A DNA stretch of 64,000 bases from a virus. Its lineage: Duplodnaviria > Caudoviricetes. The position numbers and the translations under genes are program-made. A model generated the notes under the pieces. It saw only the letters and a program-made list of their open reading frames with translations, ran no database searches and was not told the origin of the DNA. The stretch's first letter is position 1, and every line of letters starts with the position of its first letter. The stretch covers positions 473 to 64,472 of IMG/VR virus record IMGVR_UViG_3300035088_000004. One strand, 5' to 3'. Positions 15,136-32,130 of this stretch are shown here, piece after piece.

Positions 15136-17460
15136 ATGAGCTACACTGACTTTCTTGAATCCAAGCGCATCACGGTTGTGCCAAGTGGGTTCACTCCAGC
15201 CGCACTCAACCCGATGCTGTTTGATTTCCAGCGAGACGTAGACTGCTGGGCGCTGGAACGAGGGAAGGCGGCGCTGTTTGAAGATTGCGGTTTGGGTAAG
15301 AGTCCGCAGCAGTTGGTGTGGGCCGAGCAGGTGGTCCATCGCTACAACAAGCCAGTGCTGATCCTTGCTCCACTAGCAGTCAGTAAACAGACTATTCGTG
15401 AAGGTGAGAAGTTCGGTATTGAAGCGCGGCTGGCAAAGGAACAGTCGGATGTCACGACACCCGCGATCTACGTGACTAACTACGAGAAGCTAAATCACTT
15501 TAATCCATCAGTATTCGCCGGGGTTGTGCTCGATGAATCGTCAATCCTCAAGTCGTTCACCGGAGCCACGCGCAACCAGTTGATTGAGTGTTTTGCCAAC
15601 ACGCCGATGAAGCTATGCTGCACCGCTACCCCTGCGCCAAATGACTTCATGGAGTTGGGCAATCACTCTGAGTTCTTAGGCGTGCTTACCCGAACCGAAA
15701 TGCTCTCCACGTTCTTTGTCCATGACGGTGGCGACACTAGCAAGTGGCGGCTTAAGGGTCATGCGGAGGAAGAATATTGGAAGTGGATCTGTCAGTGGGC
15801 GGTCATGCTGCGTCAGCCGTCGGATCTTGGTTACGACAACAATGGATTTGTACTGCCGCAGTTAAATTACCATCATCACGTAGTGAAGAGCGAGAAGGCG
15901 ATTGACGGGTTTCTCTTTCCGGTTGAAGCGCAGACATTGACCGAGCGCCGAGGGGCCCGTCGCGCGTCATTAAATGAACGTGTTGAACTATGTGCGGCGC
16001 TGGTCAATGAGTCCGTCGAACCGTGGCTGATCTGGTGTGACCTTAACGATGAAGGCGACGCGCTGGCGAAGTTAATTCCCGACGCGGTTCAAGTGGCTGG
16101 CAGGGATAAGGACAGTGACAAAGAGTCACGGATGTTCGGGTTTAGCGACGGGCATCATCGCGTGCTGATCAGTAAGCCGTCCATCTGCGGCTGGGGCATG
16201 AATTGGCAGCACTGCGCCAACGTTGCCTTCGTCGGTTTGTCCGACTCATGGGAGCAGTGGTATCAAGCCATCAGGCGAGTCTGGCGGTTCGGTCAAACGC
16301 GTGAAGTCAACTGTCACGTTATCACGTCTGAGGCCGAAGGTGCGGTGGTGCGCAACATCCAGCGCAAGGAGGCCGACGCCGCACGCATGGCAAAGGAGAT
16401 GGTCAAGCATATGAGTGTTTATAATACCGAGGCGGTTAAAGGGACGGTGAGGACGGCAGACAGTTACAAGACGAAAGTTGAAACAGGCGATGGATGGGAG
16501 ATGCATCTTGGCGATTGCGTGGAACAAATCGCTGACGTGAAAGATGAGAGCGTTCACTATTCGATATTTTCTCCACCGTTCATCTCGTTGTATGTTTACA
16601 GTGCGCTAGAGAGAGACATGGGAAATGCCCGGAGCGATGATGAATTTTACACCCACTTTCAGTTTCTTATAAAGGAACTTCATCGCGTACTACTACCGGG
16701 ACGATTGTTATCTTTTCACTGCATGGATATTCCCGCGATGAAAGAACGTGATGGCTATATCGGGCTGAAAGATTTCCCCGGCGATCTAATCCGCATGTTT
16801 CAAGCGCAAGGATTCATCTATCACTCACGAGCGGCTATATGGAAAGATCCGTTAGTTGAGGCAACACGAACAAAAGCACTTGGGCTAATGCATAAACAAG
16901 TTGTTAAGGATAGCGCAATGAGCAGACAAGGATTGCCTGACTATCTTATCACTATGCGCAAACCAGGTGATAACAGTGAGCCAATTTCACGGCCTAAGGG
17001 ATTCATTGAGTTCATTGGTGATGATGAACCAAAGGCGCGTAAGGGTGATCCCGTAATAAGATCCCGCGACATAGAAAAGTATCAGGGAATGACTAGCGAT
17101 GATCCTGTTTACTCACATCAAGTTTGGCGGCGTTATGCGTCTCCTGTGTGGATGGATATAAATCAATCTAACACGTTACAGCGTGAATCCGCACGAGAGG
17201 ATGCTGACGAGAGGCACGTATGTCCTCTACAGTTGCAAGTAATTGAACGCGCACTGGAGCTATGGACCAACGCAAATGACGTAGTCCTTGATCCCTTTGC
17301 CGGCATTGGCTCAACTGGCTATGTCAGCCTGCAACATGGGCGGCGATTCATCGGGTTTGAGTTGAAAGAGAGCTATTTTAAACAGGCAGTTGCTAATCTG
17401 CGGGCTGCTGAGACGGTTACGCAAACAGGATTGTTCGCGGTGGCGGGTGAGAAAAGATGA
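15136..17460 (+). CDS. SNF2-type helicase fused to beta-class amino-DNA methyltransferase
   Basis: DCGLGKS, LDESS, TATP, QAIRRVWRFGQ; then FSPPF (motif IV) and DPFAGIGST (motif I). Confidence 0.9.
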   Translation: MSYTDFLESKRITVVPSGFTPAALNPMLFDFQRDVDCWALERGKAALFEDCGLGKSPQQLVWAEQVVHRYNKPVLILAPLAVSKQTIREGEKFGIEARLAKEQSDVTTPAIYVTNYEKLNHFNPSVFAGVVLDESSILKSFTGATRNQLIECFANTPMKLCCTATPAPNDFMELGNHSEFLGVLTRTEMLSTFFVHDGGDTSKWRLKGHAEEEYWKWICQWAVMLRQPSDLGYDNNGFVLPQLNYHHHVVKSEKAIDGFLFPVEAQTLTERRGARRASLNERVELCAALVNESVEPWLIWCDLNDEGDALAKLIPDAVQVAGRDKDSDKESRMFGFSDGHHRVLISKPSICGWGMNWQHCANVAFVGLSDSWEQWYQAIRRVWRFGQTREVNCHVITSEAEGAVVRNIQRKEADAARMAKEMVKHMSVYNTEAVKGTVRTADSYKTKVETGDGWEMHLGDCVEQIADVKDESVHYSIFSPPFISLYVYSALERDMGNARSDDEFYTHFQFLIKELHRVLLPGRLLSFHCMDIPAMKERDGYIGLKDFPGDLIRMFQAQGFIYHSRAAIWKDPLVEATRTKALGLMHKQVVKDSAMSRQGLPDYLITMRKPGDNSEPISRPKGFIEFIGDDEPKARKGDPVIRSRDIEKYQGMTSDDPVYSHQVWRRYASPVWMDINQSNTLQRESAREDADERHVCPLQLQVIERALELWTNANDVVLDPFAGIGSTGYVSLQHGRRFIGFELKESYFKQAVANLRAAETVTQTGLFAVAGEKR

Positions 17461-20208: not shown

Positions 20209-20409
20209 ATGGCTATCTGCAATGAATGCCTCGACCACTTCACCCCCGACAACTACCTCGAACTTTGCAACTCGTGCGGTGGGCAGATGGTGGAGCAGTA
20301 CGAGTCGATGCAGCAGTTCAAATCGCCGGTGCTGACGATTGCTGAGCTGTCGAGTCGGGTGGTGTTTGGCGAAGCGTCTACACCGCAACCAGTCTGGAGG
20401 ATAGAATGA
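20209..20409 (+). CDS. Zinc-ribbon hypothetical protein
   Basis: SD AGGAG; CNEC...CNSC. Confidence 0.6.
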   Translation: MAICNECLDHFTPDNYLELCNSCGGQMVEQYESMQQFKSPVLTIAELSSRVVFGEASTPQPVWRIE

Positions 20410-21020
20410 GTGAATATCACAAAATAGAAACACTGTTTGAGCGTGATGCGAACACCTTTAAGGTTGACCCGTCAAAACTTAAGAACCGTACCTACTCGCT
20501 GATTAAGACATGGCAGTTCACCGAGAAGATTGACGGTACGAATATCCGCTGCATTTGGAAAGATGGCGTGCTGCAATTTGGCGGCAAGACCGACAATGCA
20601 CAGGTCCATACCGATCTAATCCGCTGGCTATACGAACATATTCCAGCCGCAAGGATGGCAGAGATCTTTCCTGATAGCGAAGCGGTTATTTACGGTGAGG
20701 GCTACGGCGCAGGTATCCAGAAAGGCGGCTTGTACTCACTGACTAAAAAGTTCATCGTCTTTGACGTGCTTGTCGGCGGCAAGTGGTGGTTAAGTTGGGA
20801 GAATACTTGCGACGTTGCTGCGAAGCTCGATCTTGAAGTGGTACCATTCATTGGCGAAATGACACTTGAAGAAGCAACGGAGATGGTTCGCGCGGGATTC
20901 AAGTCGCGTCTAAATAACGGTCAGATGCAAGCGGAAGGACTAGTGGGTCGCACCGCTGAGCCGCTATTCGACAAGAAAGGTGCGCGGCTAATCGTAAAAC
21001 TTAAGACGAAGGACTTTTAG
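20406..21020 (+). CDS. ATP-dependent RNA ligase (Rnl2-like adenylyltransferase domain only)
   Basis: Motifs TEKIDGTN (I), YGEGYG (III), FIVFDV (IIIa), EGLV (IV), KLK (V). Confidence 0.85.
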   Translation: MSEYHKIETLFERDANTFKVDPSKLKNRTYSLIKTWQFTEKIDGTNIRCIWKDGVLQFGGKTDNAQVHTDLIRWLYEHIPAARMAEIFPDSEAVIYGEGYGAGIQKGGLYSLTKKFIVFDVLVGGKWWLSWENTCDVAAKLDLEVVPFIGEMTLEEATEMVRAGFKSRLNNGQMQAEGLVGRTAEPLFDKKGARLIVKLKTKDF

Positions 21021-21663: not shown

Positions 21664-21740
21664 TGCCGTGACGCGTAAGCGTATGCCGGGTCTAATCGCT
21701 TCCCAGCGTCGCTCGGTGAAAGTCTGAGACACGGCAACCA
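21664..21740 (+). ncRNA. 77-nt tRNA-like RNA with encoded ACCA end and defective anticodon arm
   Basis: TGCCGTG/CACGGCA stem + A-CCA; GCGT/ATGC D-like stem; CTCGG-TGAAAGT-CTGAG T-like arm. Confidence 0.65.
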
Positions 21741-21795
21741 GTTGGAACAAGTGGGTTATATCAACAACTTTAGATAGAAAGCGAGAATCCTTACA

Positions 21796-22104: not shown

Positions 22105-22498
22105 TGACTGGCCCTGACGCGGGGCGCTCCTAAGAAGGTCTACGGGCCGGAGGAGGTCGTACTCGGCAGGGAATTCTTGGGTCGTTGTAAGGACCGAGGG
22201 AATCCGTAGGCAGAAGGTCAAGTGAAAGAGTTGACCGCTCAGAAACGTGGGCCGTAAGGCTGATAAGGAGTACGAGTAACGGCAACTTCCTAACGGGTAG
22301 CAATGGCCCAAGGGTTATTCAGGTGGTCGTAACCGACTGTCAGCGGCATGACTTAATTGGTCGGGGCGCGAGAAGCAGGTGGAAGGCTAACTCGCATGTT
22401 CGATTAGCAACTTAGACATGGAAAGGAGTATCTCGGACCGAAACTACAGCAACAGGTAGAAAGGGAGAGGCGCTTGCTGGAGACGGTGGGCGTCTCTT
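22105..22498 (+). ncRNA. Large (~400 nt) structured non-coding RNA, family unknown
   Basis: No credible ORF; many helices with G-U pairs on + strand, GNRA loops, 8-bp long-range pairing; ends approximate. Confidence 0.7.
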
Positions 22499-24755: not shown

Positions 24756-25094
24756 TTATTTCTCCTCTGATTGTTTAGGTTGATTGATTGCCTGATTCAT
24801 TTCCCCGGCGTCCTGATCTAGTTCCGACGCAAGTTGGTCCACCTTGGACTGATCGTCATTGTCGATGATACCGAGAATCAAATCCAGCTTAGCGTTGATA
24901 AATCCCAGGTCGGGGAAATGCACGCCTGTCTCTAGTAGCTCGATGAGATGGTCTACTTTCTGCTCAAGTCGAGCTTCTTTCAGGTTGACGATCGCCTCAG
25001 CAATACGCGCCAGCGCGTTCCTCTGCGCCGTTGCCTGAGTCAGCCATTCCTGAAACTGTGCGGAGGTAAGTTCGATACGCTCAAAGTCGCTCAT
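24756..25094 (-). CDS. Hypothetical helical protein
   Basis: SD GAGG. Confidence 0.7.
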   Translation of the reverse strand: MSDFERIELTSAQFQEWLTQATAQRNALARIAEAIVNLKEARLEQKVDHLIELLETGVHFPDLGFINAKLDLILGIIDNDDQSKVDQLASELDQDAGEMNQAINQPKQSEEK

Positions 25095-25104
25095 TGATTA
25101 ACCT

Positions 25105-25398
25105 CTACGGCCACTGCGTTCCGACCCCTATTACCGGCAACGGCTTCGGATTCCTTTGGCAAACACTTGCATCGCCGTTCATAACCAGCTGCGGATAATT
25201 CGGCAGTGGGTTGAGTGCTGCGGCTAATGCACGCAAGGTACGATCATCACTCCCATCAGCACACAGTTGCTTGAACTTAGCCTGCGCCTCACCCCGCGAC
25301 ATGATAACAGCAGGTTGATTGGCGTCAATGGTTACGGCGACAGTTGGGCCTTGGGCCAGTGCCGCCGCAATGACGATGCCGATTAGTCCGTTGGTCAT
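25105..25398 (-). CDS. Secreted hypothetical protein
   Basis: Signal peptide ...AAALA-Q. Confidence 0.65.
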   Translation of the reverse strand: MTNGLIGIVIAAALAQGPTVAVTIDANQPAVIMSRGEAQAKFKQLCADGSDDRTLRALAAALNPLPNYPQLVMNGDASVCQRNPKPLPVIGVGTQWP

Positions 25399-25417
25399 AA
25401 GTGTTTAGTTCAACCCA

Positions 25418-26154
25418 ACGCGCCCCGTGCCTGTTCCGGTATAGCCGTTCCGCAGTTATCCCGTTGCTGGCTGCCGGGGGCGCGTCAGAGTCGGGGCTGC
25501 GAGTGGGAAGCGGCAAAACCATAGATCCGAAGATCCACGTCTAAGCGCGTCTTACGAAATCGCGCTCCATCCCACTCGCATTGTCAAAGGTTGCGCGGCG
25601 CGTGGGTCACATTGAAGTGTTCATCTATCACGCCTTCTCATCGCCTCCATGACAGAAGACCGCGCATCAAGTTGAGGCGTCAGTAGCTATCTGACCTTAC
25701 CACGTAGCAAGCTCGCTAATCTGCATTGCGTACGGCCTCAGTGTCAATCCCCGCAACACCGCATGTCTCCCAACAAGAGGCTGCTCAACTCCTATCCAGC
25801 CATGAATCAAGCGTCCCGGTTACGGTGTTGCGGGAAAGGGGTTGGGCTGAAGCACCGGGCTTATCCCTCGATTAATCGTTGTACCGCGTTGTTATCGACA
25901 CAGCCAACAATCACCAGCGCCCCAGCCCACAATCAATGAACCGGAGGTCAGGTAGGGCTACAGGGAGGGCTCCGTGCGCCGTTCCTTACTTATGCTGGGC
26001 ATCGCTCCGGTTCAAATTAGATTACATAGCCTAGCGCCTCAGTCGTAGCCATCTTTACCCTTCTGGGTTGGCGACTTTAACCGCGATGGCGTGCTGTTTC
26101 GGACTTCGCTACGACGCGAGCTTACTAAGCATCTCCACGGAAAGGCTATGTAAT
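25418..26154 (-). ncRNA. Tandem array of eight stem-closed structured RNA units
   Basis: Eight consecutive units each bounded by its own perfect 6-12 bp inverted repeat, 6-12 nt linkers, internal UUCG/GNRA hairpins and G-U pairs mostly favouring the - strand. Confidence 0.75.
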
Positions 26155-26174
26155 GTTAATTCAGAGTTCAAAGA

Positions 26175-26285
26175 TCAGTGTGTCACTGCGATTATAATCA
26201 ACAGCACCATCATCATCCCAACACTCACCAACCCCGGCGTCGGAGGCGTGCAGGCGTGGTGGATGAAGCGGGTGAAGGTGGTCAT
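26175..26285 (-). CDS. 36-aa hydrophobic peptide
   Basis: Manual ORF MTTFTRFIHH...MMMVLLIIIAVTH; ATGA coupling, SD AGGAG. Confidence 0.5.
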   Translation of the reverse strand: MTTFTRFIHHACTPPTPGLVSVGMMMVLLIIIAVTH

Positions 26286-26509
26286 TGGCTGCTGGCTCCT
26301 ATTAACTTGCCGACTATCCCCAACGGCAACACAACAGCTACAAACAACACCAACCCAGCAACTCTCCCAACTACCCCGATCAACTTATCTCCAACCTCTA
26401 CGTCAAGCCGATCCGGCGTGATGATGGTGGTGAGCAGGTGGAGTGGGTGACGCAGATAGACAGCATCATCATCCAACTCAGCCATACAACCAGCAACCAA
26501 CTCACTCAT
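26282..26509 (-). CDS. Small membrane protein
   Basis: C-terminal TM. Confidence 0.55.
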   Translation of the reverse strand: MSELVAGCMAELDDDAVYLRHPLHLLTTIITPDRLDVEVGDKLIGVVGRVAGLVLFVAVVLPLGIVGKLIGASSQ

Positions 26510-26741
26510 GGCCCGCTCGCTTCAATGCGTCATTCTCAGCCCTAAACTGCGCGTATGTCGCCGCTGCATCAGCCAGCACTTCAGCACGCGTCTTACCTGT
26601 CGCCTGCTGCCGTCTGGCAATCTCAGCTTCAGCGATGCCTATCAGTTTCTGGCCCAACACGCCGAGTTCGGGATGACCACTAAGTCCGGCGAGGATGGGC
26701 AGTGCCTGTTGCAGACCGGCAATAATGTCGGAGAAGTTCAT
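26502..26741 (-). CDS. Hypothetical protein
   Basis: Coupled ORF, SD GAGGGAG. Confidence 0.7.
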   Translation of the reverse strand: MNFSDIIAGLQQALPILAGLSGHPELGVLGQKLIGIAEAEIARRQQATGKTRAEVLADAAATYAQFRAENDALKRAGHE

Positions 26742-30758: not shown

Positions 30759-31994
30759 TTACGCGGCGTGAGCTTCCGAAAAGTCTACGTCAATTCCTAA
30801 CTCATGCTGTGACTGAATGACTACGCAGAGATTGTGGCAAAGCACCTTGCACAGTGCTTCGTTAATCTGCGCCGTGAGTGTCTTACTGCGAAGTCTCTGC
30901 CCAAACTTCGACTTGATCATGTGGAACGTCGTTTCAACGTTGGACCGCTTGTGATAGTGCGTCAAGAATTCTTCGCGGTGGTCTGTGTAGAATTCCAGCA
31001 TTCGAGTCCACAGCGTTGACTTTGGACCATAGTTGGTCTGTGCTTTGGAATTGGACTTGAACGGGATGTAAGGGATGGCCTTATGCCGCAAAGTCGTTAA
31101 TAGATTCTCTCCGCTTAAATAGGCTTTGTCTGCGCTCACTTCTTTCAGCGTGAAACCGTTTCCGGCAGTCGCTTCGAGCAAAGGCTTGAAGTAACCGTGA
31201 TCGTTTGAGTATCCATCGCTTATCTCAACGGACGTAACCACGTTGGTTTTTACCCCACACATCAGATGCACCTTGATCCACATGCGCCGATCTTCTTCCT
31301 TGCCATACTTCACATCTAGCCAACGCGTGAATTGACCTGTGCTGAACCCCGAACTATCAACCGCGAAGTCTGATTCAATCGATTTGAGCGGCTGTGCACT
31401 CAACTTGATCAACTCATACAAGTACGGTGTCAATGCTTCGGCTTCGAGGTAACGAAAGACTGAATTATATGAAGGCATCTGAGACAGAAAGCCGCGTCTT
31501 CTCGCTTCCTGTAGATCACTCTGAAAGCGGCGACCTGAAACCGTAGAATAAACTTTGAACGTGCTGGCGAAGATAATGTCAGCCAACGATAGACGCGGCC
31601 TCCCGCGATGCTGCACAGGCTCAGGGATGTTTCTGCATAGTTCGTAGAGCAATGCCTGTAGCTGTGACTTCTCTTGGGTCTGAGCGGCATTGTACGCGGG
31701 CCAATTCTGCGTGTAGGTCTTGCGCGTGACCTTGACCGTTTCGGTTGTGATGGTCGCGCCGTCTGCGGTCTGCTCGCGTTGGATCGTGTATTCGACTGCA
31801 AAGATATGCTTGCATCTGGCGCTAGTGAATTCGTGATCACGGCAAGTGCAACTCGGCTTTTCAGCGTCCAGCGCAACGGTGTACTTTTCCTGCTTATTGC
31901 TTTGTGAGGGAACAAGCCAAAGATTGCCTTTGCCTTGGCGCGTCAGTTTGGTTTTAGCGGCTATTTCAAGACCTTTGATCTCGCGTGGTTCCAT
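30759..31994 (-). CDS. DDE transposase (IS4/IS5 superfamily) with N-terminal SWIM zinc finger
   Basis: CTC...CKH SWIM; AVDSSG, SADKAY, YHKRSNVETTFHMIK (Y-2-R-3-E-6-K); start 31994 has AAGGAG SD. Confidence 0.92.
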   Translation of the reverse strand: MEPREIKGLEIAAKTKLTRQGKGNLWLVPSQSNKQEKYTVALDAEKPSCTCRDHEFTSARCKHIFAVEYTIQREQTADGATITTETVKVTRKTYTQNWPAYNAAQTQEKSQLQALLYELCRNIPEPVQHRGRPRLSLADIIFASTFKVYSTVSGRRFQSDLQEARRRGFLSQMPSYNSVFRYLEAEALTPYLYELIKLSAQPLKSIESDFAVDSSGFSTGQFTRWLDVKYGKEEDRRMWIKVHLMCGVKTNVVTSVEISDGYSNDHGYFKPLLEATAGNGFTLKEVSADKAYLSGENLLTTLRHKAIPYIPFKSNSKAQTNYGPKSTLWTRMLEFYTDHREEFLTHYHKRSNVETTFHMIKSKFGQRLRSKTLTAQINEALCKVLCHNLCVVIQSQHELGIDVDFSEAHAA

Positions 31995-32130
31995 TATGAG
32001 CATCTCCTTGCCTTTAAGAAGCGATTCGCTCACAATGTCTTTACCGGAGATCAAGTGCGAGCAATCGCGTTTGATTTTCAAAAGGGCCTTAGCGGTTACA
32101 GCCGTTAGGGCCTTTGCTTTTCGATGAGGG

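What the first reader, a model, noticed from the sequence alone, without database searches (positions are those of the whole stretch)
25418..26154. Tandem array of eight unrelated, individually stem-closed small RNAs
Seen: a ~740-bp gap without a credible gene is tiled by eight units, each bounded by its own perfect inverted repeat. The units are 25418-25485 (ACGCGCCCC), 25498-25580 (TGCGAGTGGGA), 25592-25666 (TGCGCGG), 25673-25740 (TGAGGC), 25750-25834 (CCCGCAACACCG), 25843-25929 (TGGGCTG), 25937-26014 (TGAACCGGAG) and 26021-26154 (ATTACATAGCCT). Seven are tRNA-sized (68-87 nt). Five begin TG and end CA. Linkers are only 6-12 nt, and four of seven linkers plus both flanks contain TTGA on the - strand. 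Interiors differ but fold on the - strand: unit 2 has GTGGATC-TTCG-GATCTAT and a GTAA loop, unit 6 is a G-U-rich rod, and unit 8 is multibranched. Unit 7 folds better on +. Because no primary repeat exists, repeat and CRISPR finders would miss it. Inference: a polycistronic cassette cut into separate small RNAs, with architecture conserved and payload variable. Possible roles are decoys for host RNA-binding or defence proteins (retron/DRT ncRNA or type III antitoxin mimics, GGA-loop sponges), guides, or substrates for circularisation. I know of no described family that fits.
Basis: partly seen in the sequence, partly recalled or inferred. Interest (0 to 1): 0.92.

Follow-up and report, generated by a model that had tools for sequence, protein, structure and literature searches.

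The report
Swappable folded-RNA cassettes in soil phage
A soil phage carries, inside its lysis-gene operon, a gene-free row of eight different, separately folded small-RNA modules, and related phages carry other subsets of them, which points to exchangeable non-coding RNA genes whose job is still unknown.

Summary
Window 25418-26154 is tiled by eight stem-closed units. The chain (closing-stem sum 74) beats 300 of 300 shuffles (maximum 30), and the next-best chain in the 64 kb scores 33. All eight fold as separate domains in the 776-nt minus-strand fold.

They match no known class. ARAGORN finds no tRNA, even at 75% threshold, and Rfam gives no hit. The phage has no reverse transcriptase, Y1 transposase, integrase or Ro60.

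A close relative (L004) keeps only units 7, 6 and 5. They are 100, 95 and 93% identical, against 79-88% for the flanking genes. None of 10 differences breaks a minus-strand pair. L004 lacks unit 8 and has an endolysin gene where units 4-1 lie. Contigs of four soil or rhizosphere runs show further module swaps near unit borders.

Best reading (0.55): minus-strand, operon-embedded, exchangeable ncRNA modules punctuated by a TTGA motif, probably cut into small RNAs. Expression, processing and function are untested. A link to the phage RNA ligase is not supported in general.

Earlier notes of this scan describe similar arrays in other phages; I found none in print.

The parts
26155..26174 (-). Leader between the stop of the 36-aa micro-ORF and unit 8. 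It holds the first TTTGAAC punctuation motif.
   Evidence: L004 has two TTTGAAC copies a few bases apart at the place where the window has unit 8 between them.
26021..26154 (-). Unit 8: 134 nt, 12-bp perfect closing stem, multibranched interior.
   Evidence: MFE -46.5, z -2.7. Absent from L004.
25937..26014 (-). Unit 7: 78 nt, 10-bp closing stem, three-way junction. The TTGA motif overlaps its 5' edge.
   Evidence: z -3.2. 78 of 78 nt identical in L004. Three different upstream contexts join at 26016.
25843..25929 (-). Unit 6: 87 nt. A 7-bp perfect closing stem extends to a 16-bp outer helix and a 16-bp inner helix with 9 G-U pairs. It is specific to the minus strand.
   Evidence: MFE -45.3 on minus against -22.5 on plus, z -6.1. 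It has 4 transitions against L004: 3 in stems, all pair-keeping, and 1 in a loop.
25750..25834 (-). Unit 5: 85 nt, 12-bp perfect closing stem (14 bp in the fold), a long hairpin and a small GGGA-loop hairpin.
   Evidence: z -4.2. All 6 differing alignment columns against L004 are unpaired.
25673..25740 (-). Unit 4: 68 nt, 6-bp closing stem, cloverleaf-like fold with a 5-bp/7-nt-loop arm next to the 3' strand. It is not a tRNA.
   Evidence: z -1.2. No ARAGORN call even at 75% threshold. Together with unit 3 it is identical (25563-25773, 0 differences) in a contig of run X2.
25592..25666 (-). Unit 3: 75 nt, 7-bp closing stem, two internal hairpins.
   Evidence: z -1.2. Identical in the X2 contig. 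It forms as a separate domain in the 776-nt fold.
25581..25591 (-). Linker 3>2. It holds TTTGACAATG, the same 10-mer that carries the start codon of the endolysin gene of L004, so it marks a recombination joint.
25498..25580 (-). Unit 2: 83 nt, 11-bp closing stem, three-way junction with a C-UUCG-G hairpin and a GUAA-loop hairpin. Both loop types read so only on the minus strand.
   Evidence: MFE -39.9 on minus against -31.2 on plus, z -5.3.
25418..25485 (-). Unit 1: 68 nt, 9-bp closing stem, irregular rod.
   Evidence: z -1.8 on minus and -2.5 on plus. Units 1-2 differ by 2 letters and 1 gap in 187 nt in a contig of run X4.
25399..25417 (-). Trailer with the last TTGAAC motif, ending at the ATG of the 97-aa secreted-protein gene (25105-25398, minus strand).
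   Evidence: The 97-aa protein has 15 homologues among public proteins besides itself.

Best explanation
The stretch is a row of eight independent, structured non-coding RNA modules read from the minus strand. It forms part of the long minus-strand late operon: tail-fibre-like 739-aa gene, holin-like gene, lipoprotein, small membrane proteins, the array, then a 97-aa secreted protein.

Shown:
- The tiling, and the independent folding of each unit.
- The lack of any ORF, tRNA or Rfam family.
- Presence or absence and swapping of whole units between closely related phages.
- Higher sequence conservation of the kept units than of the neighbouring genes.
- Substitutions that keep minus-strand pairs.
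- A TTGA(A/C/T) motif just 5' of most units. Two of the recombination joints seen against L004 lie at this motif.

Inferred:
- The operon transcript is cut in the short, U-rich single-stranded linkers, or in the closing helices, by host endonucleases (RNase E/Y-type or RNase III-type).
- Each stem-closed unit survives as a stable small RNA.
- Each acts in trans on a host or phage factor, as a decoy, sponge or protein-binding RNA.
- Each is therefore an accessory module of its own, which would explain the free exchange.

The job of any single unit is unknown.
For: Tiling: 8 units, stem sum 74, against 300 shuffles with a maximum of 30. The next-best chain in the window scores 33.

Folding: 8 of 8 closing stems form in both the MFE and the centroid of the whole 776-nt minus-strand fold, z -3.5. 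Units 2, 5, 6 and 7 have z of -3.2 to -6.1, with 0-1 of 200 shuffles folding as well.

Strand:
- Unit 6 is 22.8 kcal/mol better on minus. The background difference for about 400 random 85-nt segments of the window has sd 6.0 and minimum -15.
- Unit 2 has UUCG and GUAA tetraloops on minus only.
- All neighbouring genes are on minus.
- No promoter-like or terminator-like site lies inside the array.

Comparative:
- L004 matches 26016-25735 at 95.4%. The adjacent coding DNA matches at 88.1%, 85.8% and 79.5%.
- Unit 7 is identical in 78 of 78 nt.
- The 6 differing columns of unit 5 are all unpaired, although 60 of 86 columns are paired.
- The 4 changes in unit 6 are 3 pair-keeping stem transitions and 1 loop change.
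- Unit 8 and units 4-1 are missing from L004, which has a Peptidase_M74 endolysin gene there.

Metagenome contigs:
- Units 3-4 are identical in X2, but the contig differs before 25563.
- Units 1-2 are about 99% identical in X4.
- Contigs of X3, X4 and X5 run on past 26016 into a shared sequence unlike unit 8.
- A joint replaces the inside of unit 6 with 67 other letters in X3 and X5.
- Coding pieces nearby, from the same runs, are 81-92% alike.

Punctuation: 6 of the 8 minus-strand TTGA in 772 nt lie in the 59 nt of linkers, at a unit edge, or in the downstream flank.
Against: There is no RNA evidence at all, so transcription, ends and stability are inferred.

Only one relative (L004) gave readable sequence, and it covers three units. 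There are 0 double-sided compensatory changes. The changes in unit 5 are clustered and may be one or two events. The higher identity could reflect recent exchange rather than constraint.

Units 3 and 4 fold no better than shuffles (z -1.2). Units 1, 4 and 7 fold slightly better on plus.

The more distant relative G001 has no comparable array (best chain 43, from 6-7-bp stems only) and no homologue of any unit.

No target was found in the phage or in candidate host genomes.

The joints were laid at 80% likeness, and one has a side of 29. The tool warns that such joints can come from other organisms.
Confidence: 0.55

Rival explanations
1. The array is a cis-acting RNA spacer. The stacked stable domains work only within the operon mRNA, as processing sites, 3'-exonuclease blocks or insulators. 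They would set the relative amounts or timing of the upstream holin, lipoprotein and membrane genes and the downstream gene (endolysin in L004, the 97-aa protein here). No free small RNA would have a job of its own.
For: The array lies between cistrons of one operon, with no promoter-like or terminator-like site of its own. In L004 three units sit directly ahead of the endolysin gene. The upstream genes are tightly coupled by ATGA or GTGA overlaps, so the array is the one break in coupling.
Against: Eight different, elaborately branched domains are more than a stabiliser or processing site needs. Unit sequences are kept better than the genes (unit 7 at 100%, units 3-4 at 100% in X2), which simple hairpins would not need. 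Units come and go between close relatives without the neighbouring genes changing.
Confidence: 0.2
2. The units are substrates of the phage's own RNA ligase (20406-21020, Pfam RNA_ligase). After excision their paired ends would be joined into circles, or nicked units would be repaired. The result would be exonuclease-proof RNAs.
For: The ligase is real (PF09414, 70.5 bits). The relative without an array, G001, also lacks the ligase. One locus with a 71%-identical ligase (L110) has two adjacent strongly stem-closed units (z -4.5 and -5.6) and a weak tRNA-like element directly upstream of the ligase gene.
Against: In 44 loci with ligase homologues (742 kb), none has more than 3 units closed by 9 bp or more within 800 nt. 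The counts are 0 units in 2 loci, 1 in 6, 2 in 22 and 3 in 14, against 5 here. None shares array sequence. The ligase lies 4.4 kb away on the other strand in another operon. It is below the cut-offs of both the Rnl2 and the DRB0094 NCBIfam models. The co-absence in G001 is a single case.
Confidence: 0.07
3. The array has no function. It is debris of repeated illegitimate recombination in a hypervariable accessory slot.
For: The slot is clearly recombination-prone. L004 and the window differ by whole blocks, with a shared 10-mer at one joint. G001 has protein genes there instead.
Against: Debris would not give a tiling 13 sd above shuffles or 8 of 8 independent domains. It would not be better conserved than the flanking genes, and its substitutions would not avoid breaking pairs.
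Confidence: 0.08
4. The hairpins work at the DNA level. Folded single strands would serve as recombination sites, like integron attC sites or IS200/IS605 ends, and would drive the cassette exchange.
For: Exchange is unit-wise, with a short conserved motif at the borders. Unit sizes fall in the attC range (recalled: 57-141 bp).
Against: The phage has no tyrosine recombinase and no Y1 transposase. The unit ends do not fit the attC core sites (recalled RYYYAAC/GTTRRRY; read off). Unit 6 needs 9 G-U pairs, which are mismatches in DNA and on the other strand. The UUCG and GNRA loops are RNA features.
Confidence: 0.05
5. The array is a decayed or highly aberrant tRNA gene array.
For: Seven units are 68-87 nt with end-pairing and short spacers, like phage tRNA clusters. 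Unit 4 folds as a cloverleaf. Units 2, 3 and 6 are followed by N-C-C.
Against: ARAGORN gives 0 calls at default settings. At 75% threshold it makes 130 calls in the window but none inside 25429-26642. No Rfam tRNA match appears at E<=10. Closing stems are 9-16 bp rather than 7. No T-loop or anticodon loop is present. The 'ACC' after unit 6 reads 'AUC' in L004.
Confidence: 0.03

Closest known systems
Phage T4 small stable RNAs RNAC and RNAD (species 1 and 2) of the T4 tRNA region
   Same: Phage-encoded small non-coding RNAs with no known role, made together with neighbouring genes. They are classed as late RNAs. Source: passages of PMC3014915 and PMC9697503.
   Different: The T4 RNAs sit in a cluster of real tRNA genes, and there are two of them. 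Here there are eight unrelated units, no tRNA gene in the whole phage, and a site inside a lysis-type operon. That the T4 RNAs have paired ends and are cut by tRNA-processing enzymes is my recollection, not checked.
Bacterial and phage Y RNAs (YrlA) bound by Ro60
   Same: Small RNAs closed by a stem of their 5' and 3' ends, with a variable module. They are found in phages too and can occur several in a row. Source: abstract of PMC4201824. The row arrangement is recalled.
   Different: Y RNAs lie near a Ro60 gene and carry a tRNA-like domain. The phage has no TROVE/Ro60 gene, gives no Rfam Y RNA or YrlA match, and has no tRNA-like domain.
Phage tRNA gene arrays
   Same: Unit size, short spacers, co-transcription, and unit-wise gain and loss between relatives (the last point is recalled).
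   Different: No unit is a tRNA by ARAGORN or Rfam.
Prophage-encoded anti-sRNAs (AgvB, AsxR) of EHEC lambdoid prophages
   Same: A precedent for phage accessory small RNAs that act as decoys for host regulators. Source: abstract of PMC4104026.
   Different: Those are short, Hfq-bound, single genes that mimic a known target. Here no target or mimicry was found.
Integron cassette arrays (attC)
   Same: A row of unrelated modules, each with its own imperfect palindrome, exchanged unit by unit at short conserved border motifs.
   Different: Integron cassettes carry ORFs and need an integrase. Here there is no integrase and no attC core sites, and the structures are RNA-specific.
Processing stems of rRNA operons and T7 early-mRNA RNase III sites (recalled)
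   Same: Polycistronic RNA in which products or segments are bracketed by stems that nucleases use.
   Different: Those stems flank long rRNAs or mRNAs. Here the bracketed products would themselves be the small RNAs.

Membership tests
tRNA | Cloverleaf with 7-bp acceptor stem, T-loop, anticodon loop; detectable by ARAGORN or the Rfam tRNA model | tested here: not met
   ARAGORN gives 0 genes. At 75% threshold it makes 130 calls in the window, none inside 25429-26642. No tRNA-clan hit at E<=10.
Any Rfam family (ribozymes, Y RNA/YrlA, pRNA, GOLLD/ROOL, riboswitches) | Covariance-model match | tested here: not met
   0 matches at gathering score in the whole window. At E<=10 over 25000-26600 there are 3 chance-level hits. 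Only one lies in the array: a 21-nt pseudoknot model, E 7.9.
Y RNA / YrlA | Encoded near a Ro60 (TROVE) gene | tested here: not met
   PF05731 gives 0 matches at E<=1 in the complete phage; the control rang in 2 genomes.
Retron or DRT non-coding RNA | Adjacent reverse transcriptase gene | tested here: not met
   PF00078 gives 0 matches at E<=1 in the phage.
Integron attC cassette array | Tyrosine recombinase (IntI) and core sites RYYYAAC/GTTRRRY at the ends of each palindrome | tested here: not met
   PF00589 gives 0 matches. The unit ends read off one search do not fit the core sites, which are recalled from memory.
IS200/IS605-type elements or their miniature derivatives | Y1 (HuH) transposase; the same end hairpins repeated in the genome | tested here: not met
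   PF01797 gives 0 matches. No unit recurs elsewhere in the phage: the longest shared exact word is 13 nt.
CRISPR array / ToxI-type repeat array | Direct repeats of one sequence | tested here: not met
   Only two weak 2-copy direct matches and one 12-nt 1.9-copy tandem.
CsrA/RsmA sponge RNA | Many GGA motifs displayed in hairpin loops | tested here: not met
   17 GGA against 9.7 expected, with 6 of 17 mostly unpaired.
Phage stable small RNAs of the T4 RNAC/RNAD kind | Discrete stable RNAs processed from a phage transcript | not testable with these tools
   No RNA run was listed. Only the structure and the operon setting are known.
Protein-coding gene (including a decayed FG-GAP repeat gene) | Conserved open frame or significant protein similarity | tested here: not met
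   ORFs inside the gap are at most 65 aa, and neither they nor the 117-aa plus-strand ORF that reaches into unit 8 have a Pfam match. The 58-aa plus-strand ORF stays open in L004, but 3 of the 4 unit-6 changes alter residues and a stretch is frame-shifted. tblastn of three host-family repeat proteins gives best E of 0.09-0.6, no better than five control pieces (0.018-0.27).

The most novel reading that the evidence does not exclude
The locus is an 'RNA cassette slot': a phage-borne library of exchangeable, individually stem-closed small RNAs. Each would be a separate counter-measure, such as a decoy or inhibitor for a host RNA-binding defence or regulatory protein. The cassettes would be shuffled between soil phages at a short TTGA border motif, much as integrons shuffle gene cassettes. 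They might be made nuclease-proof by the phage's own minimal RNA ligase.
Probability: 0.1. Interest if true: 0.9.

Novelty: new variant of a known kind. Interest (0 to 1): 0.62.

Why it matters
Phage genomes are annotated almost wholly by their proteins. Here 1.2% of a complete phage genome is a set of eight elaborate RNA folds. They are better conserved than the genes around them, and close relatives trade them like accessory genes. If the units are free small RNAs, they form a class of phage accessory functions that gene callers, tRNA finders, Rfam and repeat or CRISPR finders all miss.

Their cassette-like turnover is the pattern expected of host-interaction or counter-defence factors. The probable host group (Pyrinomonadaceae, Acidobacteriota) is abundant in soil and almost unstudied for phage biology.

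Similar rows have been noted by this scan in unrelated phages. The phenomenon may therefore be general, and a concrete, comparatively tractable example with natural variants is useful.

Tried and rejected
Expression. The look-up of sequencing runs listed 23 holders, and no RNA holder was listed. Nothing can be said on transcription.

Cover of unit 8. In the four laid runs, no contig covers 26059-26119. The absence of unit 8 from L004 rests on L004's own continuous sequence.

More relatives:
- The 97-aa protein alone and an alignment of 15 of the 16 listed proteins (the 160-aa P0004 left out) gave no locus in viral contigs or genome contigs.
The contigs of the 15 homologues could not be read.
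It gave L004-L008, and only L004 reaches the array.
- Exact-pattern scans of IMG/VR for units 7, 5, 4 and 2 found nothing.
- blastn against cultured-phage records found nothing.
- The variant contigs of runs X3, X4 and X5 (units 1-5 at about 93%, units 6-7 at about 90%) would have given covariation data. Their letters are not returned by read laying, and 135 differences were not shown.

Host or target search:
- The array against 5 Acidobacteriota genomes gave a best E of 0.11.
- Against 201 genomes of that family, 5 had short matches at E 0.002-0.006 per genome, where about one is expected. One of the 5 is the unpublished genome G019.
- Three of the four hit loci that I opened (L101, L102, L104) hold matches to the unit-8 stretch, inside 1000-aa ORFs. 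They correspond to a GDFNRDG-type repeat motif on the plus strand of unit 8.
- The protein-level test was no better than controls, so I rejected the idea of a decayed repeat-protein gene.

Other ideas rejected:
- Promoters in the linkers. TTGACA or TTGAAC look like -35 boxes, but the scan finds no promoter-like site in the array, I saw no consistent -10 at 16-18 nt, and these hexamers are spread over the whole genome.
- TTG-started mini-ORFs of 9-20 codons behind each TTGA. These lengths are what chance gives, and there is no ribosome-binding site.
- A general TTGA punctuation. Next to 435 closed units in the 44 ligase loci the motif is no commoner than at random places (7.8% against 5.8%).
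- GATAR or GTAAG as a shared loop motif. This was a post-hoc idea with weak support, and GATAG in unit 5 is lost in L004.
- tRNA-like 3' ends (N-C-C after units 2, 3 and 6). This is not kept in L004 after unit 6.
- A comparable array in G001. There is none.

Literature. Five searches found no paper that describes rows of unrelated stem-closed RNAs in phages. Most subscription journals are not in that library. No supplements were opened.
Full report
SETTING. The window is nearly all of a complete 64,472-bp uncultured phage genome with direct terminal repeats. Genes from 29767 down to 22500 lie on the minus strand:
- a 739-aa protein with a tail-fibre-like segment, and a holin-like 93-aa protein (PHROGs)
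- a 150-aa lipoprotein-like protein
- 79-aa and 75-aa proteins
- a 36-aa membrane micro-protein (26175-26285), whose ATG overlaps the stop of the gene before it
- the flagged gap
- a 97-aa protein with a signal-like N-terminus (25105-25398)

The micro-ORF is real. In relative L004 it differs by one residue and one codon, although the DNA is only 88% identical.

The phage has no tRNA gene. Its DDE/SWIM transposase has relatives at 77-87% identity in genome records titled Pyrinomonadaceae, Blastocatellia or Acidobacteriota. The host is therefore probably a soil acidobacterium. This is an inference from a mobile element.

A dynamic-programming search looked for chains of units of 60-140 nt, each with a perfect closing stem of 6 bp or more and gaps of at most 15 nt. 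Three hundred dinucleotide shuffles of the stretch give a mean of 13.1, sd 4.6 and a maximum of 30. The next-best chain in the whole window scores 33.

Five of the window's 26 perfect inverted repeats of 9 bp or more lie in these 0.74 kb. In the fold of the whole 776-nt minus-strand RNA, all eight closing stems form in both the MFE and the centroid structure (z -3.5 against 20 shuffles).

Taken singly, units 2, 5, 6 and 7 are clearly better than shuffles on the minus strand (z -5.3, -4.2, -6.1, -3.2). Units 8 and 1 are moderately better (-2.7, -1.8). Units 3 and 4 are not (-1.2 each). There are no direct or tandem repeats worth the name. No ORF in the gap has a family match.

WHICH STRAND. Unit 6 decides for minus: -45.3 against -22.5 kcal/mol, with 9 G-U pairs. 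That difference of 22.8 lies beyond all of about 400 random 85-nt segments of the window (sd 6.0, minimum -15). Unit 2 has a C-UUCG-G and a GUAA tetraloop hairpin on minus only. Units 2 and 5 are 8-9 kcal/mol better on minus.

Units 1, 4 and 7 are 1-4 kcal/mol better on plus, which is within noise. The operon runs on minus, and no promoter-like or terminator-like site lies in the array. I take the RNA as minus-strand. Folding alone leaves units 1, 3, 4, 7 and 8 open.

WHAT IT IS NOT.
- Not tRNAs. ARAGORN finds none. When its threshold is dropped to 75% it makes 130 calls across the window, yet none falls inside 25429-26642.
- Not an Rfam family. Nothing reaches gathering score in the window, and only chance-level hits appear at E<=10.
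- The complete phage has no reverse transcriptase, Y1 transposase, tyrosine recombinase or Ro60. This removes retron or DRT RNAs, IS200/IS605-type ends, integron attC sites and Y RNAs as memberships.
- GGA motifs are few and mostly paired.
- The array shares no word longer than 13 nt with the rest of the phage on either strand.

COMPARATIVE EVIDENCE. A protein search with the lipoprotein found one 81.8-kb relative at 72% identity (L002/L007, called G001) and several short metagenome contigs.

G001 has small protein genes in the syntenic interval. It has no homologue of any unit and no comparable array anywhere. At the equivalent spot it does carry one 123-nt unit closed by a 13-bp stem.

L004 is close. 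It matches the tail-fibre gene at 79.5%, the lipoprotein-to-75-aa block at 85.8% and the micro-ORF at 88.1%. It matches 26016-25735 at 95.4%.

That last block is units 7, 6 and 5:
- Unit 7 is identical in 78 of 78 nt, unit 6 is 95.4% identical, and unit 5 is 93.0% identical.
- In unit 5, all 6 differing columns are unpaired, although 60 of 86 columns are paired.
- In unit 6, 3 of the 4 changes are in stems and each keeps the pair on the minus strand (G-U to A-U, C-G to U-G, G-U to G-C). The fourth is in the apical loop.

None of the 10 differences breaks a predicted pair. None is a two-sided compensatory change either, and the unit-5 changes are clustered. This is suggestive, not proof.

UNIT-WISE GAIN AND LOSS. 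L004 lacks unit 8. Where the window has TTTGAAC, unit 8, then TTTGAAC, L004 has the two TTTGAAC copies a few bases apart.

After unit 5, L004 keeps the first six letters of unit 4, then runs through two small hairpins into a 145-aa Peptidase_M74 endolysin gene. The window has no such gene. The start of that gene lies in the 10-mer TTTGACAATG, which in the window is the linker between units 3 and 2. Units 4 and 3 on one side of this joint, and units 2 and 1 with the 97-aa gene on the other, therefore stand where L004 has a short leader and the endolysin gene.

Contigs of four public soil or rhizosphere runs laid on 24900-26700 add more forms:
- A contig of X2 is identical over 25563-25773 (units 3 and 4, 0 differences) but unlike the window before 25563.
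- A contig of X4 covers units 1-2 with 2 differences and 1 gap in 187 nt.
- Contigs of X3 and X5 cover units 1-5 and 1-4 in one piece at about 93%.
- Contigs of X3, X4 and X5 that cover unit 7 run on past 26016 into a shared sequence unlike unit 8. X2 shows the L004-type junction there.
- In X3 and X5 a joint replaces 25850-25931 (the inside of unit 6) with 67 other letters.
- Coding pieces of the same runs nearby are only 81-92% alike.

These were laid at 80% likeness, and one joint has a side of 29, so single joints need care. The overall picture is of conserved modules in changing company, with breaks at or near unit borders. It agrees with L004.

PUNCTUATION. On the minus strand TTGA occurs 8 times in 772 nt. 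Four lie inside linkers, one straddles the start of unit 7, one is in the downstream flank, and two are inside unit 5. Another lies in the upstream flank. The linkers total 59 nt.

The motif reads (A/T/C)TTGA(A/C/T) and sits 0-3 nt ahead of units 7, 6, 4, 3 and 2. All three upstream contexts of unit 7 join exactly at its TTTGAAC.

It is not a general promoter-like signal of this phage. It is not a general companion of stem-closed units in other phages. I read it as the 5' border of each module. It may be a single-stranded U-rich nuclease site, a microhomology for exchange, or both. This is an inference.

THE LIGASE QUESTION. The ligase is real (PF09414, 70.5 bits) but divergent. It is below the cut-offs of the Rnl2 and DRB0094 models and has no match among solved structures.

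G001 lacks both the array and the ligase. Forty-four IMG/VR loci carry homologues of the ligase. None has an array like this one within the fetched flanks. The largest number of units closed by 9 bp or more within 800 nt is 0 in 2 loci, 1 in 6, 2 in 22 and 3 in 14, against 5 here. None shares sequence with the array.

One locus, L110, does have two adjacent strongly closed units (z -4.5 and -5.6), a TTTGAAC and a weak tRNA-like element just upstream of its ligase gene. The link stays a minority reading.

HOW IT MOST LIKELY WORKS. Shown: a minus-strand, operon-embedded row of eight autonomous RNA folds. They are conserved in sequence and pairing where present, and are gained, lost and replaced as units. 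Inferred: host endonucleases free the units, and the stem-closed products persist and act in trans. Each would be an accessory function, which would explain the moron-like turnover. I put this at 0.55.

A purely cis role in the operon mRNA gets 0.2. Ligase substrates get 0.07, debris 0.08, DNA-level sites 0.05, and decayed tRNAs 0.03.

COMPARISON WITH WHAT IS KNOWN. The nearest described things are listed here. The array fails every membership test that I could run, so it works 'like' a phage small-RNA cluster without belonging to a described family.
- The two small RNAs of unknown role in the T4 tRNA region (passages of PMC3014915 and PMC9697503).
- Y RNAs of bacteria and phages (abstract of PMC4201824).
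- Prophage anti-sRNAs, as a precedent for decoy function (abstract of PMC4104026).

Five literature searches found no description of such rows.

This scan's own earlier notes report similar rows of stem-closed or swappable RNA cassettes in other phages, several of them next to lysis genes. Those are unchecked AI notes. They are not independent support, but they suggest the pattern is recurrent.

VERDICT. The feature is real and is more than chance. It is non-coding and RNA-structured, with good comparative signs of modular exchange. Its function and even its expression are unknown. It is a new variant of a known kind (phage small-RNA clusters). Interest 0.62.

Noticed in passing
L004:3212-3649, against window 25399-25740: The close relative L004 has a 145-aa Peptidase_M74 (MepA-like) endolysin gene where the window has units 4-1 and the 97-aa gene. 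The window has no homologue of it (tblastn best E 4.2). The joint is the shared 10-mer TTTGACAATG. This leaves the window phage without a recognisable endolysin at this locus.
   Followed up: partly
window 26175-26285 (-): An unlisted 36-aa membrane micro-ORF whose ATG overlaps the stop of the 75-aa gene. It is conserved in L004 with one residue change and one codon indel at 88% DNA identity, so it is a real gene. The array begins 20 nt after its stop.
   Followed up: yes
window 22322-22392 (+) and L002:5068-5138: A 71-nt piece of the structured region at 22.1-22.5 kb recurs at 79% identity in relative G001. There it lies in the interval syntenic to the array and on the operon strand. It contains a hairpin with 4 two-sided compensatory pairs. 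In G001 it sits just after a 123-nt unit closed by a 13-bp stem (G001 16410-16532). RNA modules seem to move between these two loci.
   Followed up: partly
window 21664-21744 (+): A stem-closed, cloverleaf-like element with a 7-bp acceptor-like stem, a 5-bp arm with a 7-nt loop, and ACCA at its 3' end. ARAGORN does not call it even at 75% threshold, and it has no Rfam hit. Its fold z is only -1.45.
   Followed up: partly
L110:9735-9987: In a phage contig with a 71%-identical RNA ligase, the 280 nt just upstream of the ligase gene hold several elements. There are two adjacent stem-closed units (11-bp and 13-bp closing stems; z -4.5 and -5.6), a TTTGAAC, and a weak tRNA-like element ending in ACCA (14 bits to two tRNA-like Rfam models).
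   Followed up: partly
window 30759-32081 (-): The DDE/SWIM transposase of the insertion element in this phage has relatives at 77-87% identity in many Pyrinomonadaceae, Blastocatellia and Acidobacteriota genome records. This gives a host lead for an otherwise unplaced phage.
   Followed up: partly
window 26059-26090 (unit 8) and 25885-25916 (unit 6), plus strand: Matches of 24-32 nt (88-96%) occur to long repeat-protein ORFs of Pyrinomonadaceae-family genomes. The unit-8 stretch reads GDFNRDG on the plus strand, like FG-GAP-type repeats. Protein-level similarity is no better than controls, so this is probably chance.
   Followed up: yes
window 25763-25939 (+) and L004:2982-3158 (-): A 58-aa plus-strand ORF across units 5-6 stays open in L004 through two frame-compensating indels. 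About ten residues are frame-shifted, and 3 of the 4 unit-6 changes alter residues. It has no ribosome-binding site and no Pfam match. I judged it not to be a gene.
   Followed up: partly
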